A DNA stretch of 64,000 bases from a phage: the NCBI GenBank assembly GCA_018015315.1, contig GCA_018015315.1_3629.1; one strand, 5' to 3'. Below the pieces are notes generated by a model. It made no database searches. It saw only the letters and a list, made by a program, of their open reading frames with translations, and was not told where the DNA came from. This document shows, one piece after another, positions 55,961 through 63,625 of the stretch. The position numbers and the translations under genes were made by a program. Each line of letters opens with the position of its first letter. Within the stretch, counting starts at the first letter, position 1.

Positions 55961-56037
55961 TGGTCTCCACGGAGTGATTCGAACACTCGACCTCCTGATC
56001 CCAAATCAGGCGCTCTACCAAGCTGAGCTACGCGGAG
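55961..56037 (-). tRNA. tRNA-Pro (anticodon UGG)
   Basis: Hand-folded cloverleaf: acceptor CTCCGCG/CGTGGAG, D-stem GCTC/GAGC, anticodon stem CCTGA/TCAGG, loop TTTGGGA, T-arm GAGTG-TTCGAAT-CACTC, CCA encoded. Confidence 0.75.
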
Positions 56038-56048
56038 TATTTACTATT

Positions 56049-56123
56049 TGGTGGCCCTGGGTGGAATTGAACCACCGTCTGGCGATTATGAGTCGCTTGC
56101 TTGAACCTTCCAGCTACAGGGCC
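56049..56123 (-). tRNA. tRNA-Met (anticodon CAU; could be Ile-lysidine type)
   Basis: Acceptor GGCCCTG/CAGGGCC, anticodon loop CTCATAA, T-arm GGTGG-TTCAATT-CCACC, CCA encoded; D-stem only 3 bp. Confidence 0.65.
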
Positions 56124-56124
56124 T

Positions 56125-56200
56125 TGGTGCTGATGGCAGGACTTGAACCTGCAACATATTGATTACAAATCAATTGCACTACCAATTGTGCTACATCAGC
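56125..56200 (-). tRNA. tRNA-Thr (anticodon UGU)
   Basis: Perfect cloverleaf: acceptor GCTGATG/CATCAGC, D-stem GCAC/GTGC, anticodon stem ATTGA/TCAAT, loop TTTGTAA, T-arm GCAGG-TTCAAGT-CCTGC, CCA. Confidence 0.8.
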
Positions 56201-56205
56201 AAAAA

Positions 56206-56304
56206 GGTGCTAGGTGATGGAATCGAACCATCTATGTATTCAACGACTACCTCGTCTATTTTCAGGATTAAAAATCCTCGCCCTTGCCAAAGGGCTTACC
56301 TAGC
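56206..56304 (-). tRNA. atypical tRNA-like gene (possible anticodon UUU, ~30-nt extra region)
   Basis: Perfect acceptor (GCTAGGT/ACCTAGC), D-arm (GCCC-TTTGGCAA-GGGC) and T-arm (GATGG-TTCGATT-CCATC), but 4-bp anticodon stem and an unusually long region before the T-arm. Confidence 0.4.
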
Positions 56305-56402
56305 TCAGTATGTTGACCATGTTGCTAGTCGGCGATGACGACTGTAACATTTGATAATCCGGTTCTGCTTCCGGCTTTCGCTTAATTACAAGGTCAACAA
56401 TG

Positions 56403-56493
56403 TGGCAGAGGATAATGGAATCGAACCATCATCGAGTCATCCTCAACGGGACGGTTTTCAAGACCGCTTGAGCACCATTGCTCCCTACCCTCT
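56403..56493 (-). tRNA. tRNA-Ser (anticodon UGA), long variable arm
   Basis: Anticodon arm GCGGT-CTTGAAA-ACCGT, variable-arm hairpin, T-arm GATGG-TTCGATT-CCATT, acceptor AGAGGGT/ATCCTCT with one G-U pair, CCA encoded; D-arm spacing unusual. Confidence 0.6.
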
Positions 56494-56610
56494 TTTATTA
56501 TAAACAATACTGATAATGACACTGATTTTCGAGCAGTTAGTGACTAGTATAAACGACGATAAATACCAATGCCATTATCTGTATGATTTATGCATCTAAA
56601 AATATAAATT

Positions 56611-56697
56611 TGGTGGGGAGTGGTGGAGTCGAACCACCCGAGTCGCAATGACAATAGATTTACAGTCTACACCGCTACCTCTACGGGATAACTCCCC
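56611..56697 (-). tRNA. tRNA-Tyr (anticodon GUA), long variable arm
   Basis: Acceptor GGGGAGT/ACTCCCC, anticodon arm GTAGA-CTGTAAA-TCTAT, T-arm GGTGG-TTCGACT-CCACC, CCA encoded. Confidence 0.7.
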
Positions 56698-56701
56698 AAT
56701 T

Positions 56702-56776
56702 TGGCACCCCGTACTGGACTCGAACCAGTGTCAACGGCTTAGAAGGCCGCTGCTTTATCCACTAAGCTAACAGGGC
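56702..56776 (-). tRNA. tRNA-Arg (anticodon UCU)
   Basis: D-stem GCTT/AAGC, anticodon arm GCGGC-CTTCTAA-GCCGT, T-arm ACTGG-TTCGAGT-CCAGT, CCA encoded. Confidence 0.75.
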
Positions 56777-59155: not shown

Positions 59156-59236
59156 GTGTCCGTATCACGGACAGTTAGTGTCCGTATTACGGGCAGATGT
59201 GTCCGCGTGACGGACAGTAGTGTCCGTATCACGGAC
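59156..59236. repeat. array of four palindromic iterons (TGTCCGT-NNN-ACGGACA)
   Basis: Units start at 59156, 59178, 59199, 59220 (21-22 bp periodicity); units 1 and 4 identical, 2 and 3 differ by 1-2 bases; beside an AT-rich stretch with inverted repeats (GATCTAGTA 59055-59063 / TACTAGATC 59104-59112). Confidence 0.7.
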
Positions 59237-59312
59237 AGTTACTGACCTCTGTTCCAGAGCGAACATAAAACATACGAATCCTTATAGTACAGATATTTAA
59301 GTTTTTACTGGT

Positions 59313-59663
59313 CTAACCAGTTGTTGACATTCGAATAACCTCTTCTGGTGGCAAAACTTTGGAAAATGTACATCTTTTACCTCTCCCTTGTGTGGATATT
59401 TCAACCACTCCTGCACATTCTAAAGTTTTAACGCACGCTGCTGCTTTTGTTTTCTTTATCCCAACATCTGCTGCAATTTTCCTTGTGCTTGGTGTGAAGC
59501 GTGAATTTCCTCCAAGCTTATACCAGTTGTGCAGGTAGCAGTATACGATCTTGTCATATAAGTCAAGAACAACAACCTCCCCAGTTGTGTCATTCAAAAC
59601 TTTTGACATAGACAGTATTTCAAGGGGGACTTTAAGATATAGCAGCTTATCCCCATCTTTCAT
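59313..59663 (-). CDS. putative helix-turn-helix DNA-binding protein
   Basis: 116 aa; HTH-like segment TRKIAADVGIKKTKAAACVKTLECAGVV; adjacent to the iteron array. Confidence 0.55.
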   Translation of the reverse strand: MKDGDKLLYLKVPLEILSMSKVLNDTTGEVVVLDLYDKIVYCYLHNWYKLGGNSRFTPSTRKIAADVGIKKTKAAACVKTLECAGVVEISTQGRGKRCTFSKVLPPEEVIRMSTTG

Positions 59664-59710: not shown

Positions 59711-60265
59711 TTACTCCCCGCTGTCAATAGCAAGACTCATTGCAATAAGGTATGCCTCTTCTAATGGTAAGAGTCTCCCCCACACATCCCAACCGACATC
59801 AAACTGCCTGCCAAACAACTGCTGTGTGGTTCCGTGAGCATGACCGAACAGTTGGACTGATCCGTGAGGCTTTCTGTTCCACTTTGCAAACTGGTAATGG
59901 CTCATACAGATCAAATTCTTGTTGTGGCGAAGCTCGTAATAATCTACAACCTCATGACCGAACTCTTTCATAATTCTGACAGTCGTCCTTGTGTCATGGT
60001 TACCACGAACAAGAATAATATGTCCGTTCAACATATTTAGAACATCTGGGAGCAATTTGTTGATATTCTTATCATTAGTGCACGCAATATCTCCCAAGTG
60101 AAACACAGTGTCTGCAGGCGACACAACAGAGTTCCACTCGGCGATGATTCCCGCATTCATACTGTCAAGATTGTGATCATACTGAGATCTGTGTTTTTGA
60201 CATGAATCAAACTCCATGACCCGCTGGTGGAGAAAGTGTGTGTCGCTTGTTACAAAGTATTTCAT
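59711..60265 (-). CDS. calcineurin-like metallophosphoesterase
   Basis: Start at the internal ATG (MKYFVTSDTHF); motifs D-x-H (SDTH), GD (HLGDIA), GNHD (RGNHDT), GHxH (GHAHG). Confidence 0.7.
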   Translation of the reverse strand: MKYFVTSDTHFLHQRVMEFDSCQKHRSQYDHNLDSMNAGIIAEWNSVVSPADTVFHLGDIACTNDKNINKLLPDVLNMLNGHIILVRGNHDTRTTVRIMKEFGHEVVDYYELRHNKNLICMSHYQFAKWNRKPHGSVQLFGHAHGTTQQLFGRQFDVGWDVWGRLLPLEEAYLIAMSLAIDSGE

Positions 60266-60272
60266 ACATTCC

Positions 60273-60683
60273 TCATTTAAGTTTAATGCAGTTTTTAAGC
60301 TGGCGTTCCATACGATCCACAACCTTGTCTGGAACATCATGAATGCTTTTATTACCGTGGCGGTTTTCAACCACGATCACGGTATAACTATACCCATGAC
60401 TGATTGCCATGTCAACATATTCCTGCACATGTTTTTCTTTTGTAAACGTATTACTTACCACGATACGGTCGTATCCCATACGCATCATATCTTCTACGTT
60501 ATCTTTGCACCATTTTGCTGCGAGTGTTACTTTACTTGCATCCCAGTTGTAATTGCCGTCATCGTCATACCAGAACATATCGTTCTCAAAATGTGGATAC
60601 AGACCTTCTAAAGATAGCGCATTTGCCAGTGTTGATTTGCCAGACCCTGGCAGACCACGCACGATATATAGCATTTTAGACAT
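60273..60683 (-). CDS. P-loop polynucleotide kinase-like protein
   Basis: Start at ATG (MSKMLYIV) with GGAGG RBS; Walker A GLPGSGKST at residues 10-18; ~136 aa, the size of a standalone 5'-kinase domain. Confidence 0.65.
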   Translation of the reverse strand: MSKMLYIVRGLPGSGKSTLANALSLEGLYPHFENDMFWYDDDGNYNWDASKVTLAAKWCKDNVEDMMRMGYDRIVVSNTFTKEKHVQEYVDMAISHGYSYTVIVVENRHGNKSIHDVPDKVVDRMERQLKNCIKLK

Positions 60684-60711
60684 AGCAATCCTCCGTTTTA
60701 ATTTTAATGAT

Positions 60712-60740
60712 AGTATACCTAACTGTTTTGTTAATTTCAA
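60712..60740 (-). promoter_or_regulatory. sigma70-like promoter for the kinase/phosphoesterase pair
   Basis: Minus strand: TTGAAA (60735-60740), 17-bp spacer, TATACT (60712-60717). Confidence 0.55.
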
Positions 60741-60783
60741 GTGTTGACACTAGGTTATTTGTGTGGCAGGATAGACTGACAAA

Positions 60784-61719
60784 ATGACAAATGAGGAACG
60801 TATGATGAAGTATTTTAATGCAGATGACCTAGTAGACAAAGGTCTTGTAACCAGTCGGTATTATCCAGATCTTGGATTAAAGATCTATAAATATGCCAGA
60901 AAAGTATTCTACAACAATCTGTGGCATTTGTCTCCGCGTTTACTGGAGTGCCGAGGTATTGTTGTTGGCAATGAGGGGAATGTTGTGGCATGGCCTTTCA
61001 CAAAAGTATTCAACTTAGGAGAAAACTCCACCAACCTACCGGACAGTAAACTTGTTACTGCGGTAGAGAAAAAGAACGGATTCCTCGGTGTGGTATCATC
61101 TCATAAAGGTGAACTATTGTTCTCAACAACCGGGTCTCTTGATTCTCCATATTGTAACCTTGCAAAGGAAACCATCCAAGAGCAATGTGGTAATTTAGAT
61201 CTTATCAAGAAGGTTATGGGCAATGAAAACATGACATTCATGTTTGAAATTTGTCACCCTTCAGATCCGCATATTGTTCAAGAAGACCATGGCGCATATT
61301 TGATAGGTTGCAGATATAATGATTCTGGAATAATGCTACCAGAAGCAGCTTTAGATGGGATTGCCAAATACCTTGGTGCAAAACGTCCTCACACTGTGCG
61401 TGAAATCCCGTTCAGCTATGCAAAAGAATTAGCTGCAGAAACAAGGGGCGAAGGGTATATGATCCGTAAGCCTTACTACCCTTATGACCTGCAGCTGAAG
61501 ATCAAGTCTCCATACTATTTGGCACGGAAGGCCGTAATGAGAGGTAAAGCATGGAAGATTTGGGATGACGATATTTTTAAACGTGTTGACGAGGAGTTTT
61601 ACGGTATGGTAAAATTTATTCGTAGCAACTATACAGAAGATGTGTGGAATTGCTTATTAGAGCAGGAGCGTCGCGAGATACTGGACTGCTATTTCCACAA
61701 CGAGGACTACATGAAATGA
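60784..61719 (+). CDS. RNA ligase (Rnl-like nucleotidyltransferase)
   Basis: 311 aa; candidate motif I lysine in VEKKNGFLG (KxxG); divergent from the kinase/phosphoesterase operon. Confidence 0.6.
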   Translation: MTNEERMMKYFNADDLVDKGLVTSRYYPDLGLKIYKYARKVFYNNLWHLSPRLLECRGIVVGNEGNVVAWPFTKVFNLGENSTNLPDSKLVTAVEKKNGFLGVVSSHKGELLFSTTGSLDSPYCNLAKETIQEQCGNLDLIKKVMGNENMTFMFEICHPSDPHIVQEDHGAYLIGCRYNDSGIMLPEAALDGIAKYLGAKRPHTVREIPFSYAKELAAETRGEGYMIRKPYYPYDLQLKIKSPYYLARKAVMRGKAWKIWDDDIFKRVDEEFYGMVKFIRSNYTEDVWNCLLEQERREILDCYFHNEDYMK

Positions 61720-62066
61720 AGAAGTGGATTGTGTGGCTTGATGATTTTAGAGATCCGTCAGATTATGGACTCCCAGACGCTCTGTGGCTAAAGAATTCTT
61801 CTGAATTTATGGATTTTCTTAATGATAAGAGAAAGCTCTACAGACGCGTATCTGAATGGTATTTTGACAATGATCTAGGTGAAGTTCTTGAAGGGTACGA
61901 CTGCTTCTCTGCGCTAGAGGAGAAACTTGTATTCGGAAAGCCACCACTTATTGACAACGTGATTATTTTCGTGCATACTTCTAATCCATCGGCAGCTCGT
62001 AAATTTATGCTTGCTGCTGACTCATTCAAGAAGTTTGGAATAGAGATCAAACAAAACATCTACTGA
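61716..62066 (+). CDS. hypothetical protein coupled to the RNA ligase
   Basis: ATG overlaps the ligase stop (ATGA); 117 aa. Confidence 0.5.
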   Translation: MKKWIVWLDDFRDPSDYGLPDALWLKNSSEFMDFLNDKRKLYRRVSEWYFDNDLGEVLEGYDCFSALEEKLVFGKPPLIDNVIIFVHTSNPSAARKFMLAADSFKKFGIEIKQNIY

Positions 62067-62074
62067 GGACACTT

Positions 62075-62836
62075 ATGCGACGACTGATTATTATCTCCGG
62101 TGCTGGTTTGAGCGCTGAATCTGGTATTCCCACTTTCCGATCTGGTAGCACTGCAATGTGGGAGAATTTCAGCATCGATGAGGTGTGCAACATCCACACC
62201 TTTGCCAAGAACTACTATAAGGTGCATGACTTTTACAATGCACGTCGTGTAGCTCTGGGCAGTGTTGATCCTAACCTTGCACATCTTCGGATCGCTGAGT
62301 GGTATTCCCGCTGGTCTGGTCGTGTGATCAACCTTACCACCAATGTAGATGATTTGCTGGAGCGTGCTGGTGTAAAACATGAAGATATTTTACATGTCCA
62401 CGGGTATTTGCCTGAAATCACCTACGAAGATGCTGAAGGTAATGATGTAATTAAAAATATCGGATACACGGAGGTAGATACAGGCAAGTATACCTGGGTT
62501 AAGCCCAATGTAGTGTTCTTCGGTGAGGTTGCTCCTAAGTATACAGACATGTATGACCTGTTGACATCTCTCACAAGCAATGATATGGTGATCCTAGTAG
62601 GTTGTTCTAACACAGTTATTAATTTTAACTGGGAATTGTTTCCTGCTACTTGTAAAGGCACAAAACTGCTGATTGTAAACAAGTATGACTCGCAGAGTGC
62701 AGATGGAAGTGGCATTTCACGTAGCGACCTTTATCAATATGAGGATCGCGGGATCCCTGTATGGTTTAACGGTGCTGTTGACGCTTTCTCTGATAAAGCA
62801 TTTATTGAAACTGTAGAAAACTTTATGGAACTTTAA
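62075..62836 (+). CDS. Sir2-family (sirtuin-like) NAD-dependent enzyme lacking the Zn-ribbon
   Basis: Sirtuin motifs GAGLSAESGIPTFRS, FYNARR, TTNVDD, HVHG, VVFFGE, ILVGCS; the CxxC...CxxC zinc module is absent. Confidence 0.75.
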   Translation: MRRLIIISGAGLSAESGIPTFRSGSTAMWENFSIDEVCNIHTFAKNYYKVHDFYNARRVALGSVDPNLAHLRIAEWYSRWSGRVINLTTNVDDLLERAGVKHEDILHVHGYLPEITYEDAEGNDVIKNIGYTEVDTGKYTWVKPNVVFFGEVAPKYTDMYDLLTSLTSNDMVILVGCSNTVINFNWELFPATCKGTKLLIVNKYDSQSADGSGISRSDLYQYEDRGIPVWFNGAVDAFSDKAFIETVENFMEL

Positions 62837-62849
62837 AAGGAGACCTTTA

Positions 62850-63563
62850 ATGCTGAATACTAAACTGATCGACAACCTGGAAAAACTGTCTCAGCCTGAA
62901 AACTACCTTTGGTCTGCCAACTGGGTGGAAAACTGGAACCGTGTGGCAGCTAAAGTGAAAAAATCATACACACCATTCGAATTACAGCTTAGCTTCATTG
63001 AGGAAGAGTTCAATGAGGTTTTGGAAGAGCTGGAGAAAGGTGATGGTGGAGATCACCTGCTAAAAGAGGCCTGCGATCTTCACGTTGTCACAAGTTATGC
63101 CGCTTATCTTGTTAATGATAATCACGAAAAGTGGTCAAACCTGTTTGATAATCCACGAGGTCTTAAGTTCAAGATCGGTGAGTTCTATGATACACTGATC
63201 GCTGCGAAAAACACATCCAAGCAAAGAGCGTCAGCTTACCGCTTAGCGGAGTTGTCAACAGCTTTGCTGTTCCAGCTTCGCGGCGATGTGTGTGGGATGA
63301 TGCGGAAGGTTCTCAAATCTAATGACAGTAAGTTTGCACGGATCAACCATCTACGATATTCTCACAGTGCCAGTGCAGATATGTCTACTGAATTGCTCAT
63401 AGAGTTAGAGATTGAAGATCTTGAGCGTCGTTTTGGTGGTCGCTACGAAGGTTTCGTTGCTAAAGAGGAGTTCTACAACGGTAATAAAGTTATTATATTC
63501 CTTGACAGTAAAGGTAAGATTATGAAGCCTTCGAGCTTCAAGGATGTAACAGAGTATATTTAA
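62850..63563 (+). CDS. MazG-like nucleoside triphosphate pyrophosphohydrolase
   Basis: 237 aa; EEEFNEVLEELEKGD...KEACD acidic metal-binding motif typical of all-alpha NTP pyrophosphatases. Confidence 0.55.
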   Translation: MLNTKLIDNLEKLSQPENYLWSANWVENWNRVAAKVKKSYTPFELQLSFIEEEFNEVLEELEKGDGGDHLLKEACDLHVVTSYAAYLVNDNHEKWSNLFDNPRGLKFKIGEFYDTLIAAKNTSKQRASAYRLAELSTALLFQLRGDVCGMMRKVLKSNDSKFARINHLRYSHSASADMSTELLIELEIEDLERRFGGRYEGFVAKEEFYNGNKVIIFLDSKGKIMKPSSFKDVTEYI

Positions 63564-63625
63564 CAACATAGCCGGGATTACCCGGCTTTACTTATTATGG
63601 AAAGTATGCAGTGAGGTAGTTAGTT

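What the first reader, a model, noticed from the sequence alone, without database searches (positions are those of the whole stretch)
62075..62836. Sirtuin-like protein missing the zinc-binding module
The protein keeps the NAD-binding Rossmann motifs and the catalytic HG, but the segment where sirtuins carry CxxC...CxxC has no cysteines. That argues against a canonical deacetylase and for NAD hydrolysis, ADP-ribosylation or another activity.
Basis: partly seen in the sequence, partly recalled or inferred. Interest (0 to 1): 0.7.

Follow-up and report, generated by a model that had tools for sequence, protein, structure and literature searches.

The report
Zinc-less phage sirtuin in RNA-repair operon
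This is a real sirtuin gene of an rV5-like E. coli phage that has lost the zinc-holding cysteines but kept all its NAD-using catalytic residues; it belongs to a published phage sirtuin group that sits among RNA-repair genes, and its chemistry has never been tested.

Summary
ORF 62075..62836 (+, 253 aa) is a PF02146 sirtuin. The GAG, F21/R22, N90/D92 and H109-G110 motifs are intact, and residues 111-147, where sirtuins carry CxxC...CxxC, contain no Cys or His.

The loss is clade-wide in phage homologues. The first knuckle is replaced by a longer turn and the second is deleted. The three-stranded sheet that carried the zinc is still predicted with high confidence (pLDDT about 95).

The fold and sequence are closest to class III deacylases: CobB, Sir2Af1 and SIRT5. 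They are not closest to defence Sir2 NADases or to SirTM. Zinc loss co-varies with a Q-to-T change in the QNxD NAD motif and with decay of the GTS motif.

The gene is the third of a four-gene unit: Rnl1-like RNA ligase, cREC, Sir2, MazG-like. A kinase and a metallophosphoesterase are transcribed divergently, and a tRNA cluster lies about 4 kb away.

Iyer et al. 2022 already described this neighbourhood for phage V5 and predicted Tpt1/KptA-like removal of RNA 2'-phosphate. I found no experimental test of that.

A plain deacylase remains a serious rival.

The parts
62075..62836 (+). Phage sirtuin gene (253 aa), derived from class III sirtuins, without zinc ligands
62099..62140 (+). NAD-binding GAGxSxxSGIPxFR motif (G9-A10-G11, S16, F21, R22)
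   Evidence: These residues are invariant in alignment A1 of 54 clade members and conserved in both the zinc-containing and zinc-less groups.
62234..62248 (+). Class III Y54-N-A-R57-R58 motif (the YxxR that binds the acyl carboxylate in SIRT5 and CobB)
   Evidence: Y54, R57 and R58 are invariant in A1. The motif aligns with FYNARR of CobB and FYHYRR of SIRT5.
62336..62350 (+). T88-T89-N90-V91-D92: the sirtuin TQNxD motif with the Gln replaced by Thr
   Evidence: Q is present in 73 of 88 zinc-containing relatives. Of 57 zinc-less relatives, 42 have T, 4 S, 3 A, 1 C and 7 Q.
62393..62404 (+). H107-V-H109-G110, including the catalytic histidine
   Evidence: H109 and G110 are invariant.
62405..62515 (+). 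Former zinc module (aa 111-147): no Cys or His; first CxxC replaced by a turn 3 aa longer; second CxxC knuckle deleted; beta strands kept
   Evidence: Column-wise comparison with relatives that carry four Cys. Strands 110-118, 124-128 and 142-146 are predicted at pLDDT about 95.
62600..62611 (+). G176-C177-S178-N179: the sirtuin GTS(G) NAD-phosphate motif, with the Thr not conserved in the clade
   Evidence: T is 100% in the zinc/Q group and only 10% in the phage group.
60784..61719 (+). T4 Rnl1-type RNA ligase, first gene of the unit
   Evidence: PF09511 at E 9e-15. phrog_562 at E 9e-66.
61716..62066 (+). cREC (cyclic-phosphate processing receiver-like) protein; its start overlaps the ligase stop (ATGA)
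   Evidence: PF20274 at E 9.8e-14. The overlap was read directly. Annotated at the same place in phage naswa.
62850..63563 (+). MazG-like nucleotide pyrophosphohydrolase, last gene of the unit
   Evidence: phrog_671 at E 5.8e-22. EExxE...ExxD motifs (IEEEFNEVLEEL, KEACD) are visible in the translation. No Pfam or PDB sequence hit.
63570..63587 (+). GC-rich hairpin followed by a T-rich tail: candidate terminator of the four-gene unit
   Evidence: Consensus scan only.
60273..60740 (-). P-loop (AAA_33 / polynucleotide-kinase-like) kinase, transcribed divergently
   Evidence: PF13671 at E 1.7e-10. phrog_2071 and phrog_505.
59711..60370 (-). Calcineurin-like metallophosphoesterase
   Evidence: PF00149 and PF12850 at E about 4e-6. 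phrog_547 at E 7.7e-52.
55961..56776 (-). Phage tRNA cluster of 7 genes, about 4 kb from the module
   Evidence: ARAGORN. The same cluster is annotated in phage naswa.

Best explanation
The gene encodes an active NAD+-dependent enzyme of class III (CobB/SIRT5-like) sirtuin ancestry, carried by a Vequintavirus (rV5-like E. coli phage).

In its phage clade the structural zinc site has decayed. The first Cys knuckle became an ordinary turn and the second was deleted, while the small beta sheet and the whole catalytic apparatus were kept. Losing the zinc is therefore a structural simplification, not a switch of chemistry.

The enzyme is made from one transcription unit with an Rnl1-type RNA ligase, a cREC phosphoesterase and a MazG-like pyrophosphatase. 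A kinase and a metallophosphoesterase lie next to it.

Most likely it serves the phage's tRNA/RNA repair pathway as a non-homologous analogue of Tpt1/KptA, in these inferred steps:
1. An RNA 2'-phosphate, left when a 2',3'-cyclic end is opened and ligated, attacks C1'' of NAD+ in place of an acyl-lysine oxygen, and nicotinamide leaves.
2. The His109-activated ribose 2''-OH then attacks the phosphorus.
3. This releases RNA with a free 2'-OH plus ADP-ribose 1'',2''-cyclic phosphate.
4. cREC and MazG-like then degrade that by-product.

Shown here: the identity, the fold, the conserved residues, the zinc-ligand loss, the operon and the recurrent linkage. Inferred: the RNA substrate and every reaction step.
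For: Identity and fold:
- PF02146 at E 6.9e-28.
- CobB and SIRT5 are the best PDB sequence hits.
- The AF2 model has pLDDT 89.6.

Active site kept: GAG, S16, F21, R22, Y54, R57, N90, D92, H109, E151, S178 and N202 are invariant in 54 clade members.

Zinc site lost across the clade with the scaffold kept.

The clade differs from true deacylases:
- All NCBIfam CobB models score far below their cutoffs (122.6 against 243; 104 against 320).
- Q89 is replaced by T and the GTS Thr is lost.

Operon: the ligase stop and cREC start overlap, the gaps around Sir2 are 8 and 13 nt, and a terminator-like hairpin lies right after the MazG-like gene.

The linkage recurs in other gene orders and other phage families:
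- Jumbo phage G17 has Sir2, then a Nudix (Nudt16-like), then cREC.
- T5-like phages have Sir2 followed by a HAD 'Swiss-army-knife' RNA-repair phosphatase.
- One metagenomic T4-like contig has RlaP, Sir2, NADAR.
- Of 61 IMG/VR loci (21 clusters at 70% identity), 14 carry the ligase/kinase/cREC/MazG set and 29 carry HAD_SAK within 6 kb.

Iyer et al. 2022 (PMC9503650, section 3.7.3) independently described this neighbourhood for phage V5 and made the same prediction.

Mechanistic fit, from established knowledge of the sirtuin and Tpt1 mechanisms: both begin with an oxygen nucleophile attacking C1'' of NAD+, followed by attack of the ribose 2''-OH to form a 1'',2''-cyclic species.
Against: - There is no biochemical evidence for any sirtuin acting on RNA, and none for this clade (literature searches found only the 2022 prediction).
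- The acyl-lysine tunnel residues and the YxxR motif are fully conserved, which is just what a plain desuccinylase or deacetylase would show.
- A sirtuin substrate tunnel is narrow for an internal RNA 2'-phosphate. I could not inspect the model coordinates to measure the cleft.
- The linkage is not universal: 16 of 61 viral loci, and phAPEC8-like phages, show none of the RNA-repair probes near the gene.
- Nudix, MazG and NADAR neighbours would equally well clean up O-acyl-ADP-ribose from deacylation.
- T4-type healing by a kinase and phosphatase needs no 2'-phosphate removal, and a metallophosphoesterase is present.
- E. coli already has KptA.
Confidence: 0.45

Rival explanations
1. It is an ordinary protein lysine deacylase (deacetylase, desuccinylase or lipoamidase, like host CobB). 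The phage would use it to reset acylation of host or phage proteins. The zinc loss would be a neutral structural change and the neighbours would be coincidental, or would clean up O-acyl-ADP-ribose.
For: - The best sequence and fold matches are all deacylases of class III.
- The catalytic His, N90, D92, the FGE strand and the succinyl-binding Y54/R57 are invariant.
- The zinc-module sheet is retained.
- Zinc has no catalytic role (PMC8556138).
- Several phage lineages carry the gene without RNA-repair neighbours.
Against: - It scores far below every curated CobB equivalog cutoff.
- The Gln of QNxD, 100% conserved in 73 zinc-containing relatives, is replaced by Thr, and the GTS motif has decayed.
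- Translational coupling with RNA-repair genes and recurrent linkage in three different gene orders are hard to explain by chance.
Confidence: 0.3
2. It is an NAD+ glycohydrolase, or an enzyme acting on small NAD/ADPr-derived molecules. For example it might destroy or make a nucleotide signal in phage-host conflict.
For: - Neighbours in various phages (Nudix, MazG-like, NADAR, cREC) act on ADPr-type small molecules.
- The changed NAD-contact residues T89 and C177 might alter how the co-substrate is handled.
Against: - The acyl/anion-binding Y54/R57 and the substrate strand are under strict conservation, which pure NAD hydrolysis would not need.
- NAD+ depletion would harm a lytic phage.
Confidence: 0.1
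3. It is a protein ADP-ribosyltransferase of the SirTM type that modifies a host or phage protein.
Against: - SirTM keeps its zinc and replaces the catalytic His by Gln. This protein does the opposite: H109 is kept and the zinc is lost.
- No macrodomain partner is in the neighbourhood.
- Identity to SirTM is only 13%.
Confidence: 0.08

Closest known systems
Phage RNA-repair-associated sirtuin clade (Iyer, Burroughs, Anantharaman & Aravind 2022, Viruses 14:1977, section 3.7.3)
   Same: It is the same clade and the same neighbourhood. The paper names Escherichia phage V5 as the prototype, with the sirtuin coupled to a T4-like tRNA ligase, cREC, a nucleotide kinase, a MazG pyrophosphatase and sometimes a calcineurin-like phosphoesterase. 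All five are found here. The window is a Vequintavirus.
   Different: Nothing differs in kind. The paper's main text does not mention the loss of the zinc cysteines, the deleted second knuckle or the Q-to-T change. Its functional proposal is purely computational.
Class III sirtuins: E. coli CobB (1S5P, 6RXJ), Sir2Af1 (1ICI), human SIRT5
   Different: There are no zinc ligands. QNxD is TNxD and GTS is GCS. The protein falls far below the CobB equivalog cutoffs. It is phage-borne and lies in an RNA-repair unit.
Tpt1/KptA RNA 2'-phosphotransferase
   Same: This is a proposed functional analogy only. Both use NAD+, both involve an oxygen nucleophile attacking C1'' and a 1'',2''-cyclic product, and both are associated with RNA ligase and cyclic-phosphate enzymes.
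   Different: The fold is unrelated (ART fold versus Rossmann sirtuin). There is no sequence similarity: the Pfam scan gave no Tpt1 hit. The activity has not been demonstrated for any sirtuin.
SirTM (macrodomain-linked ADP-ribosylating sirtuins, Rack et al. 2015)
   Same: Sirtuin fold with a non-deacylase activity.
   Different: SirTM retains zinc, has Gln in place of the catalytic His and is paired with a macrodomain. None of these apply here.
Defence-associated SIR2 NADases (ThsA, HerA-SIR2, DSR2, Avs5, pAgo-SIR2; Pfam SIR2_2)
   Same: They also lack the four-Cys zinc module and consume NAD+.

Membership tests
Sirtuin superfamily (Pfam PF02146 SIR2) | Profile match above the gathering score | tested here: met
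   98.2 bits against a cutoff of 24, E 6.9e-28, covering profile positions 1-178 of 180.
Sirtuin superfamily (Pfam PF02146 SIR2) | Catalytic His and NAD-contact residues (GAGxS, FR, NxD, HG, FGE) | tested here: met
   G9-A10-G11, S16, F21, R22, N90, D92, H109, G110 and E151 are invariant in 54 clade members.
Sirtuin superfamily (Pfam PF02146 SIR2) | Four-Cys (CxxC...CxxC) structural zinc site | tested here: not met
   No Cys or His in aa 111-147. The first knuckle is replaced and the second is deleted.
Sirtuin superfamily (Pfam PF02146 SIR2) | Gln of the (T)QNxD motif | tested here: not met
   T89 here. Q is 100% in the 73 Zn/Q relatives and T is 84% in the phage group.
Class III sirtuins (CobB/SIRT5) | YxxR motif that recognises acidic acyl groups | tested here: met
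   Y54 and R57 are invariant and align with FYNARR of CobB and FYHYRR of SIRT5.
Class III sirtuins (CobB/SIRT5) | Closest fold is a class III structure | tested here: met
CobB protein deacylase (NCBIfam equivalogs NF040867 and the PRK00481 models) | Score above the curated equivalog cutoff | tested here: not met
   104 bits against 320; 122.6 against 243; the other models are lower still.
CobB protein deacylase | Lysine deacylase activity | not testable with these tools
   Needs an enzyme assay.
Phage RNA-repair sirtuin clade (Iyer et al. 2022) | Phage-encoded, with no adjacent macrodomain | tested here: met
   The window is 99% identical to Vequintavirus genomes. The neighbours carry no macro domain.
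Phage RNA-repair sirtuin clade (Iyer et al. 2022) | Neighbourhood of a T4-like RNA ligase, cREC, nucleotide kinase and MazG, with or without a calcineurin-like phosphoesterase | tested here: met
   All five are present within 59711-63563. The description is in the paper.
Phage RNA-repair sirtuin clade (Iyer et al. 2022) | RNA 2'-phosphate removal (the predicted function) | not testable with these tools
   It is a prediction only. No experiment was found.
SirTM ADP-ribosylating sirtuins | Catalytic His replaced by Gln; macrodomain partner; zinc retained | tested here: not met
   H109 is retained, there is no macro gene nearby and no zinc ligands.
Defence-associated SIR2 NADases (SIR2_2 and PADLOC models) | Profile match to SIR2_2 or to a defence Sir2 model | tested here: not met
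   PF13289 scores E 0.097, 13.2 bits against a cutoff of 24.5. PADLOC returns only an unrelated weak hit at E 0.011.
Tpt1/KptA | Homology to the Tpt1 ART fold | tested here: not met
   No Tpt1 family appears in the Pfam scan. The fold is a sirtuin Rossmann fold. Only a functional analogy is proposed.

The most novel reading that the evidence does not exclude
The zinc-less, Thr89 phage sirtuins would be the first sirtuins whose substrate is a nucleic acid. They would be a non-homologous replacement of Tpt1/KptA, removing RNA 2'-phosphates with NAD+ during phage repair of tRNAs cut by host anticodon nucleases. On this reading, the clade signatures found here adapt the cleft to an RNA phosphate instead of an acyl-lysine. 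Those signatures are the deleted zinc knuckle, the Q-to-T change in QNxD and the decayed GTS motif.
Probability: 0.35. Interest if true: 0.8.

Novelty: already known. Interest (0 to 1): 0.4.

Why it matters
More than a thousand sequenced phages carry this gene (1,012 records). They include T5-like, rV5-like and jumbo phages that are used as models and in therapy. All annotate it as 'NAD-dependent deacetylase' by homology alone.

If the enzyme really works on RNA 2'-phosphates, three things would follow:
- Sirtuin chemistry would extend from proteins to nucleic acids.
- It would explain how these phages complete tRNA repair without a Tpt1 of their own.
- It would add a counter-defence step against anticodon nucleases.

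If it is a plain deacylase, it shows that a canonical sirtuin can dispense with its zinc. That is useful for understanding what the zinc module is for. Either outcome can be tested with one purified 253-aa protein.

Tried and rejected
- **A zinc site built from non-Cys ligands.** Rejected. The segment has no His. No Asp or Glu in it is conserved: only G130, Y131, W141, K143 and P144 are. Of 50 clade members, 21 have neither Cys nor His there.
- **'Module deleted'.** Rejected. The length and the strands are kept.
- **Zinc loss as the defining trait of the phage clade.** Only partly true.
  - A few Thr89 members keep 3-4 Cys. P0170 is on a phage-like contig and P0269 is on a cellular contig.
  - A separate cellular Gln89 lineage is also zinc-less: P0262 and relatives.
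  - So zinc loss happened more than once.
- **An active zinc-less deacylase as precedent.** My recollection that Lactobacillus Sir2La is one could not be verified; the preprint does not discuss it. An in-silico paper reports zinc-less SIR2 proteins in acetic acid bacteria, but without biochemistry.
- **Functional data on the QNxD Gln.** A search for SIRT5 Q140L found nothing.
- **Experimental papers on phage sirtuins.** Searches found only the 2022 computational study.
- **PDB sequence search with the MazG-like protein.** No hit.
- **Neighbours in phAPEC8, P0123 and Vibrio phage K566.** No informative families.
- **Cleft geometry.** I could not obtain the model coordinates, so it was not measured.

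Full report
**What is at the coordinates.** ORF 62075..62836 on the + strand is an ATG-to-TAA reading frame of 253 codons, preceded by GAGGA. It matches Pfam SIR2 (PF02146) over almost the whole profile at 98.2 bits, E 6.9e-28. It matches PHROG 2162 'Sir2' at E 1.5e-108. The window is an rV5-like E. coli phage (Vequintavirus). The 3 kb around the gene are 99.3% identical to phage MiataMamis and more than 96% identical to dozens of others. The protein is 100% identical to the annotated 'sirtuin domain NAD-dependent deacetylase' of phage EmilHeitz. tblastn finds relatives in 1,012 phage records: T5-like, rV5-like, phAPEC8-like, Klebsiella, Vibrio and jumbo phages.

**Checking the observation.** The protein has three cysteines (C38, C177, C193). 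There is none, and no histidine, in residues 111-147 between the catalytic H109-G110 and the F148-F149-G150-E151 strand. E. coli CobB aligns over this stretch with its cysteines in place. The loss is clade-wide. Among the 120 closest database clusters, 64 have no Cys and 25 have one Cys in this segment; one has two, and 30 escaped the motif pattern used to locate the segment.

I then searched 1.84 billion representative proteins exhaustively, which gave 5,496 hits, and aligned 145 of the best. In zinc-containing relatives the four Cys sit in fixed columns, each about 90-99% conserved. In the phage group the first CxxC is replaced by a turn three residues longer. The second CxxC knuckle is deleted, making the segment about eight residues shorter. 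The flanking strands, including a shared 'IGY' motif and 'KPNVVFFGE', are retained. Of 50 clade members, 21 have neither Cys nor His in the segment, so no alternative metal site is conserved.

**Structure.** AlphaFold2 on a 54-sequence alignment gives pLDDT 89.6 and pTM 0.88. Residues 110-146 score about 95 and form strands 110-118, 124-128 and 142-146, which is the three-stranded sheet of the sirtuin small domain. The low-confidence stretches are 23-27, which is the mobile cofactor loop in known sirtuins, and 206-211, a lineage-specific insertion. The zinc-binding capacity is therefore lost, but the module is not.

**Which sirtuin it resembles.**
- Sequence search of the PDB is led by E. coli CobB, SIRT5 and Sir2Af1, at E about 3e-21 to 1e-19.
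- Foldseek is led by CobB (E 1.4e-18, TM 0.75/0.83), then Sir2Af1 and SIRT5.
- Pfam SIR2_2, the defence-type family, scores E 0.097, and PADLOC has no Sir2 hit.

The protein is thus derived from CobB-like class III sirtuins and not from the defence NADases. Zinc-containing near relatives sit in cellular contexts. One is next to a lipoate ligase in a Mycoplasma-like contig, one is among purine genes, and one is next to a TonB receptor. Zinc-less Thr89 relatives sit in phage contigs.

**What is conserved and what changed.** In 54 clade members the following are invariant: G9-A10-G11, S16, F21, R22, Y54, R57, R58, N90, D92, H109, G110, E151, G176, S178 and N202. That is the full NAD-binding and catalytic set plus the class III YxxR motif. 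The enzyme is therefore under selection as an active NAD-consuming catalyst that recognises an anionic group.

I compared 50 zinc-less members lacking Gln89 (the phage-type group) with 73 zinc-containing Gln89 relatives. The discriminating positions are few. They are Q89 to T in the QNxD motif, T177 of the GTS motif (100% in the Zn/Gln group, 10% in the phage-type group), G179 to N, and positions 43 and 47. Across all 145 sequences, zinc-containing proteins have Q89 in 73 of 88 cases. Zinc-less ones have T, S, A or C in 50 of 57. All curated CobB models score far below their cutoffs. So this is a distinct subfamily with altered NAD-contact residues, not a CobB orthologue.

A rough neighbour-joining tree suggests that the Thr89 change and the zinc loss are not strictly one event. 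A few Thr89 proteins keep 3-4 Cys, and a separate cellular Gln89 lineage also lost its Cys.

**Gene context.** On the + strand the genes run as follows.
- 60784..61719: Rnl1-type RNA ligase (PF09511).
- 61716..62066: cREC (PF20274). Its ATG overlaps the ligase TGA.
- 62075..62836: the sirtuin.
- 62850..63563: a MazG-like pyrophosphohydrolase (phrog_671, with EExxE and ExxD motifs).
- 63570..63587: a GC-rich hairpin with a T-rich tail.

Divergently transcribed are a P-loop polynucleotide-kinase-like protein and a calcineurin-like phosphoesterase. Seven tRNA genes lie at 55961-56776.

The link to RNA-end and ADPr-processing genes recurs in other arrangements.
- Jumbo phage G17, whose sirtuin is 39% identical, has Sir2, Nudix, cREC.
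- T5-like phages have Sir2 followed by a HAD_SAK_2 RNA-repair phosphatase.
- A T4-like metagenomic contig has RlaP, Sir2, NADAR.

In 61 IMG/VR viral loci (21 clusters at 70% identity), 14 have the ligase/kinase/cREC/MazG set. A further 29 have HAD_SAK, 2 have only the phosphoesterase, and 16 have none of my probes within 6 kb. That retrieval was pattern-biased towards Thr89 members, and many loci are close relatives. These counts therefore illustrate recurrence rather than giving a statistic.

[quoted passage not shown] They propose KptA-like removal of RNA 2'-phosphates. This is exactly the locus in the window.

Their main text does not mention the zinc ligands. Five literature searches found no experimental work on phage sirtuins. 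The known ADP-ribosylating sirtuins (SirTM) differ in the opposite way: zinc is kept and the catalytic His is replaced by Gln.

**How it most likely works.** I commit, at about 0.45, to the RNA-repair reading. The steps are these.
1. After a host metal-independent nuclease cuts a tRNA, cREC or the phosphoesterase opens the 2',3'-cyclic phosphate.
2. The kinase phosphorylates the 5'-OH.
3. The Rnl1-type ligase seals the break.
4. The sirtuin removes the remaining 2'-phosphate by ADP-ribosyl transfer from NAD+. His109 promotes attack of the ribose 2''-OH on phosphorus. This releases ADP-ribose 1'',2''-cyclic phosphate, which cREC and the MazG-like enzyme degrade.

The parallel between the sirtuin and Tpt1 reaction paths comes from established mechanism. 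Its application here is inference.

The main rival, at about 0.3, is a plain deacylase. It is supported by the untouched acyl-lysine and YxxR apparatus. NADase (0.1) and protein ADP-ribosyltransferase (0.08) readings are less likely, for the reasons given above.

**Verdict.** A non-canonical role is nevertheless plausible on contextual grounds. The entity and that hypothesis are already published, so novelty is low. What this analysis adds is:
- the anatomy of the zinc-site decay (one knuckle replaced, one deleted, sheet retained);
- its co-variation with the Q-to-T and GTS changes in NAD-contact motifs;
- the placement of the fold nearest CobB, Sir2Af1 and SIRT5.

The function remains an open question that can be tested directly.

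Noticed in passing
window 62850-63563 (+): The MazG-like gene downstream of the sirtuin is annotated 'putative Sir2-like protein' in several GenBank relatives (for example naswa_15, and the SophiaRose, LL12 and navn records). It has no sirtuin similarity: no Pfam hit, and phrog_671 nucleotide pyrophosphohydrolase. This looks like a propagated annotation error.
   Followed up: partly
window 56206-56304 (-): Inside the tRNA cluster, ARAGORN calls a 99-nt tRNA-like gene with an odd four-base anticodon (atcc) and no assignable amino acid. It is annotated 'tRNA-OTHER' in phage naswa.
   Followed up: no
window 59156-59247: Four tandem copies, spaced 21-22 bp, of a unit with the palindromic core GTGTCCGTATCACGGACA. 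They lie in the intergenic region just downstream of the HTH/DUF6945 regulator gene (59313-59663, - strand). They look like operator or iteron sites, and the region is annotated as repeat_region in naswa.
   Followed up: no
L009 4917-7181 (metagenomic T4-like contig, Logan SRR14300940): A zinc-less Thr89 sirtuin (P0126) is flanked by an RlaP nucleotidyltransferase upstream and a NADAR domain protein immediately downstream. This is a fourth neighbourhood type linking the clade to ADP-ribose processing.
   Followed up: partly
L002 4993-6333 (T5-like phage EC122): Downstream of the T5-like sirtuin lie a HAD_SAK_2 RNA-repair phosphatase and then two tandem paralogues, each carrying two DUF7415 repeats of unknown function.
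   Followed up: no
Alignment A1 columns 49-75 (between query residues 45 and 46): About a third of clade members, such as P0012, P0047, P0082, P0097 and P0117, carry an insertion of about 20-27 residues in the helical part of the small domain ('FDAGYR...DEDG.DLY'). It is absent from the window protein, so the substrate-side lobe is variable within the clade.
   Followed up: no
window 62690-62760 (aa 203-228 of the sirtuin): The window protein and the T5-like members share a C-terminal insertion ('YDSQSADGSGISRSDLYQYE') that most other clade members lack. It is the lowest-confidence part of the model, with pLDDT below 50 at 206-211.
   Followed up: no
L006 2060-5427 (Mycoplasma-like contig, Logan ERR10093333): The closest zinc-containing cellular relative (P0135, 51% identical) lies near a lipoate-protein ligase gene. 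This recalls the lipoamidase role reported for CobB and SrtN. The locus translation did not match under genetic code 11, presumably because the organism uses code 4.
   Followed up: no
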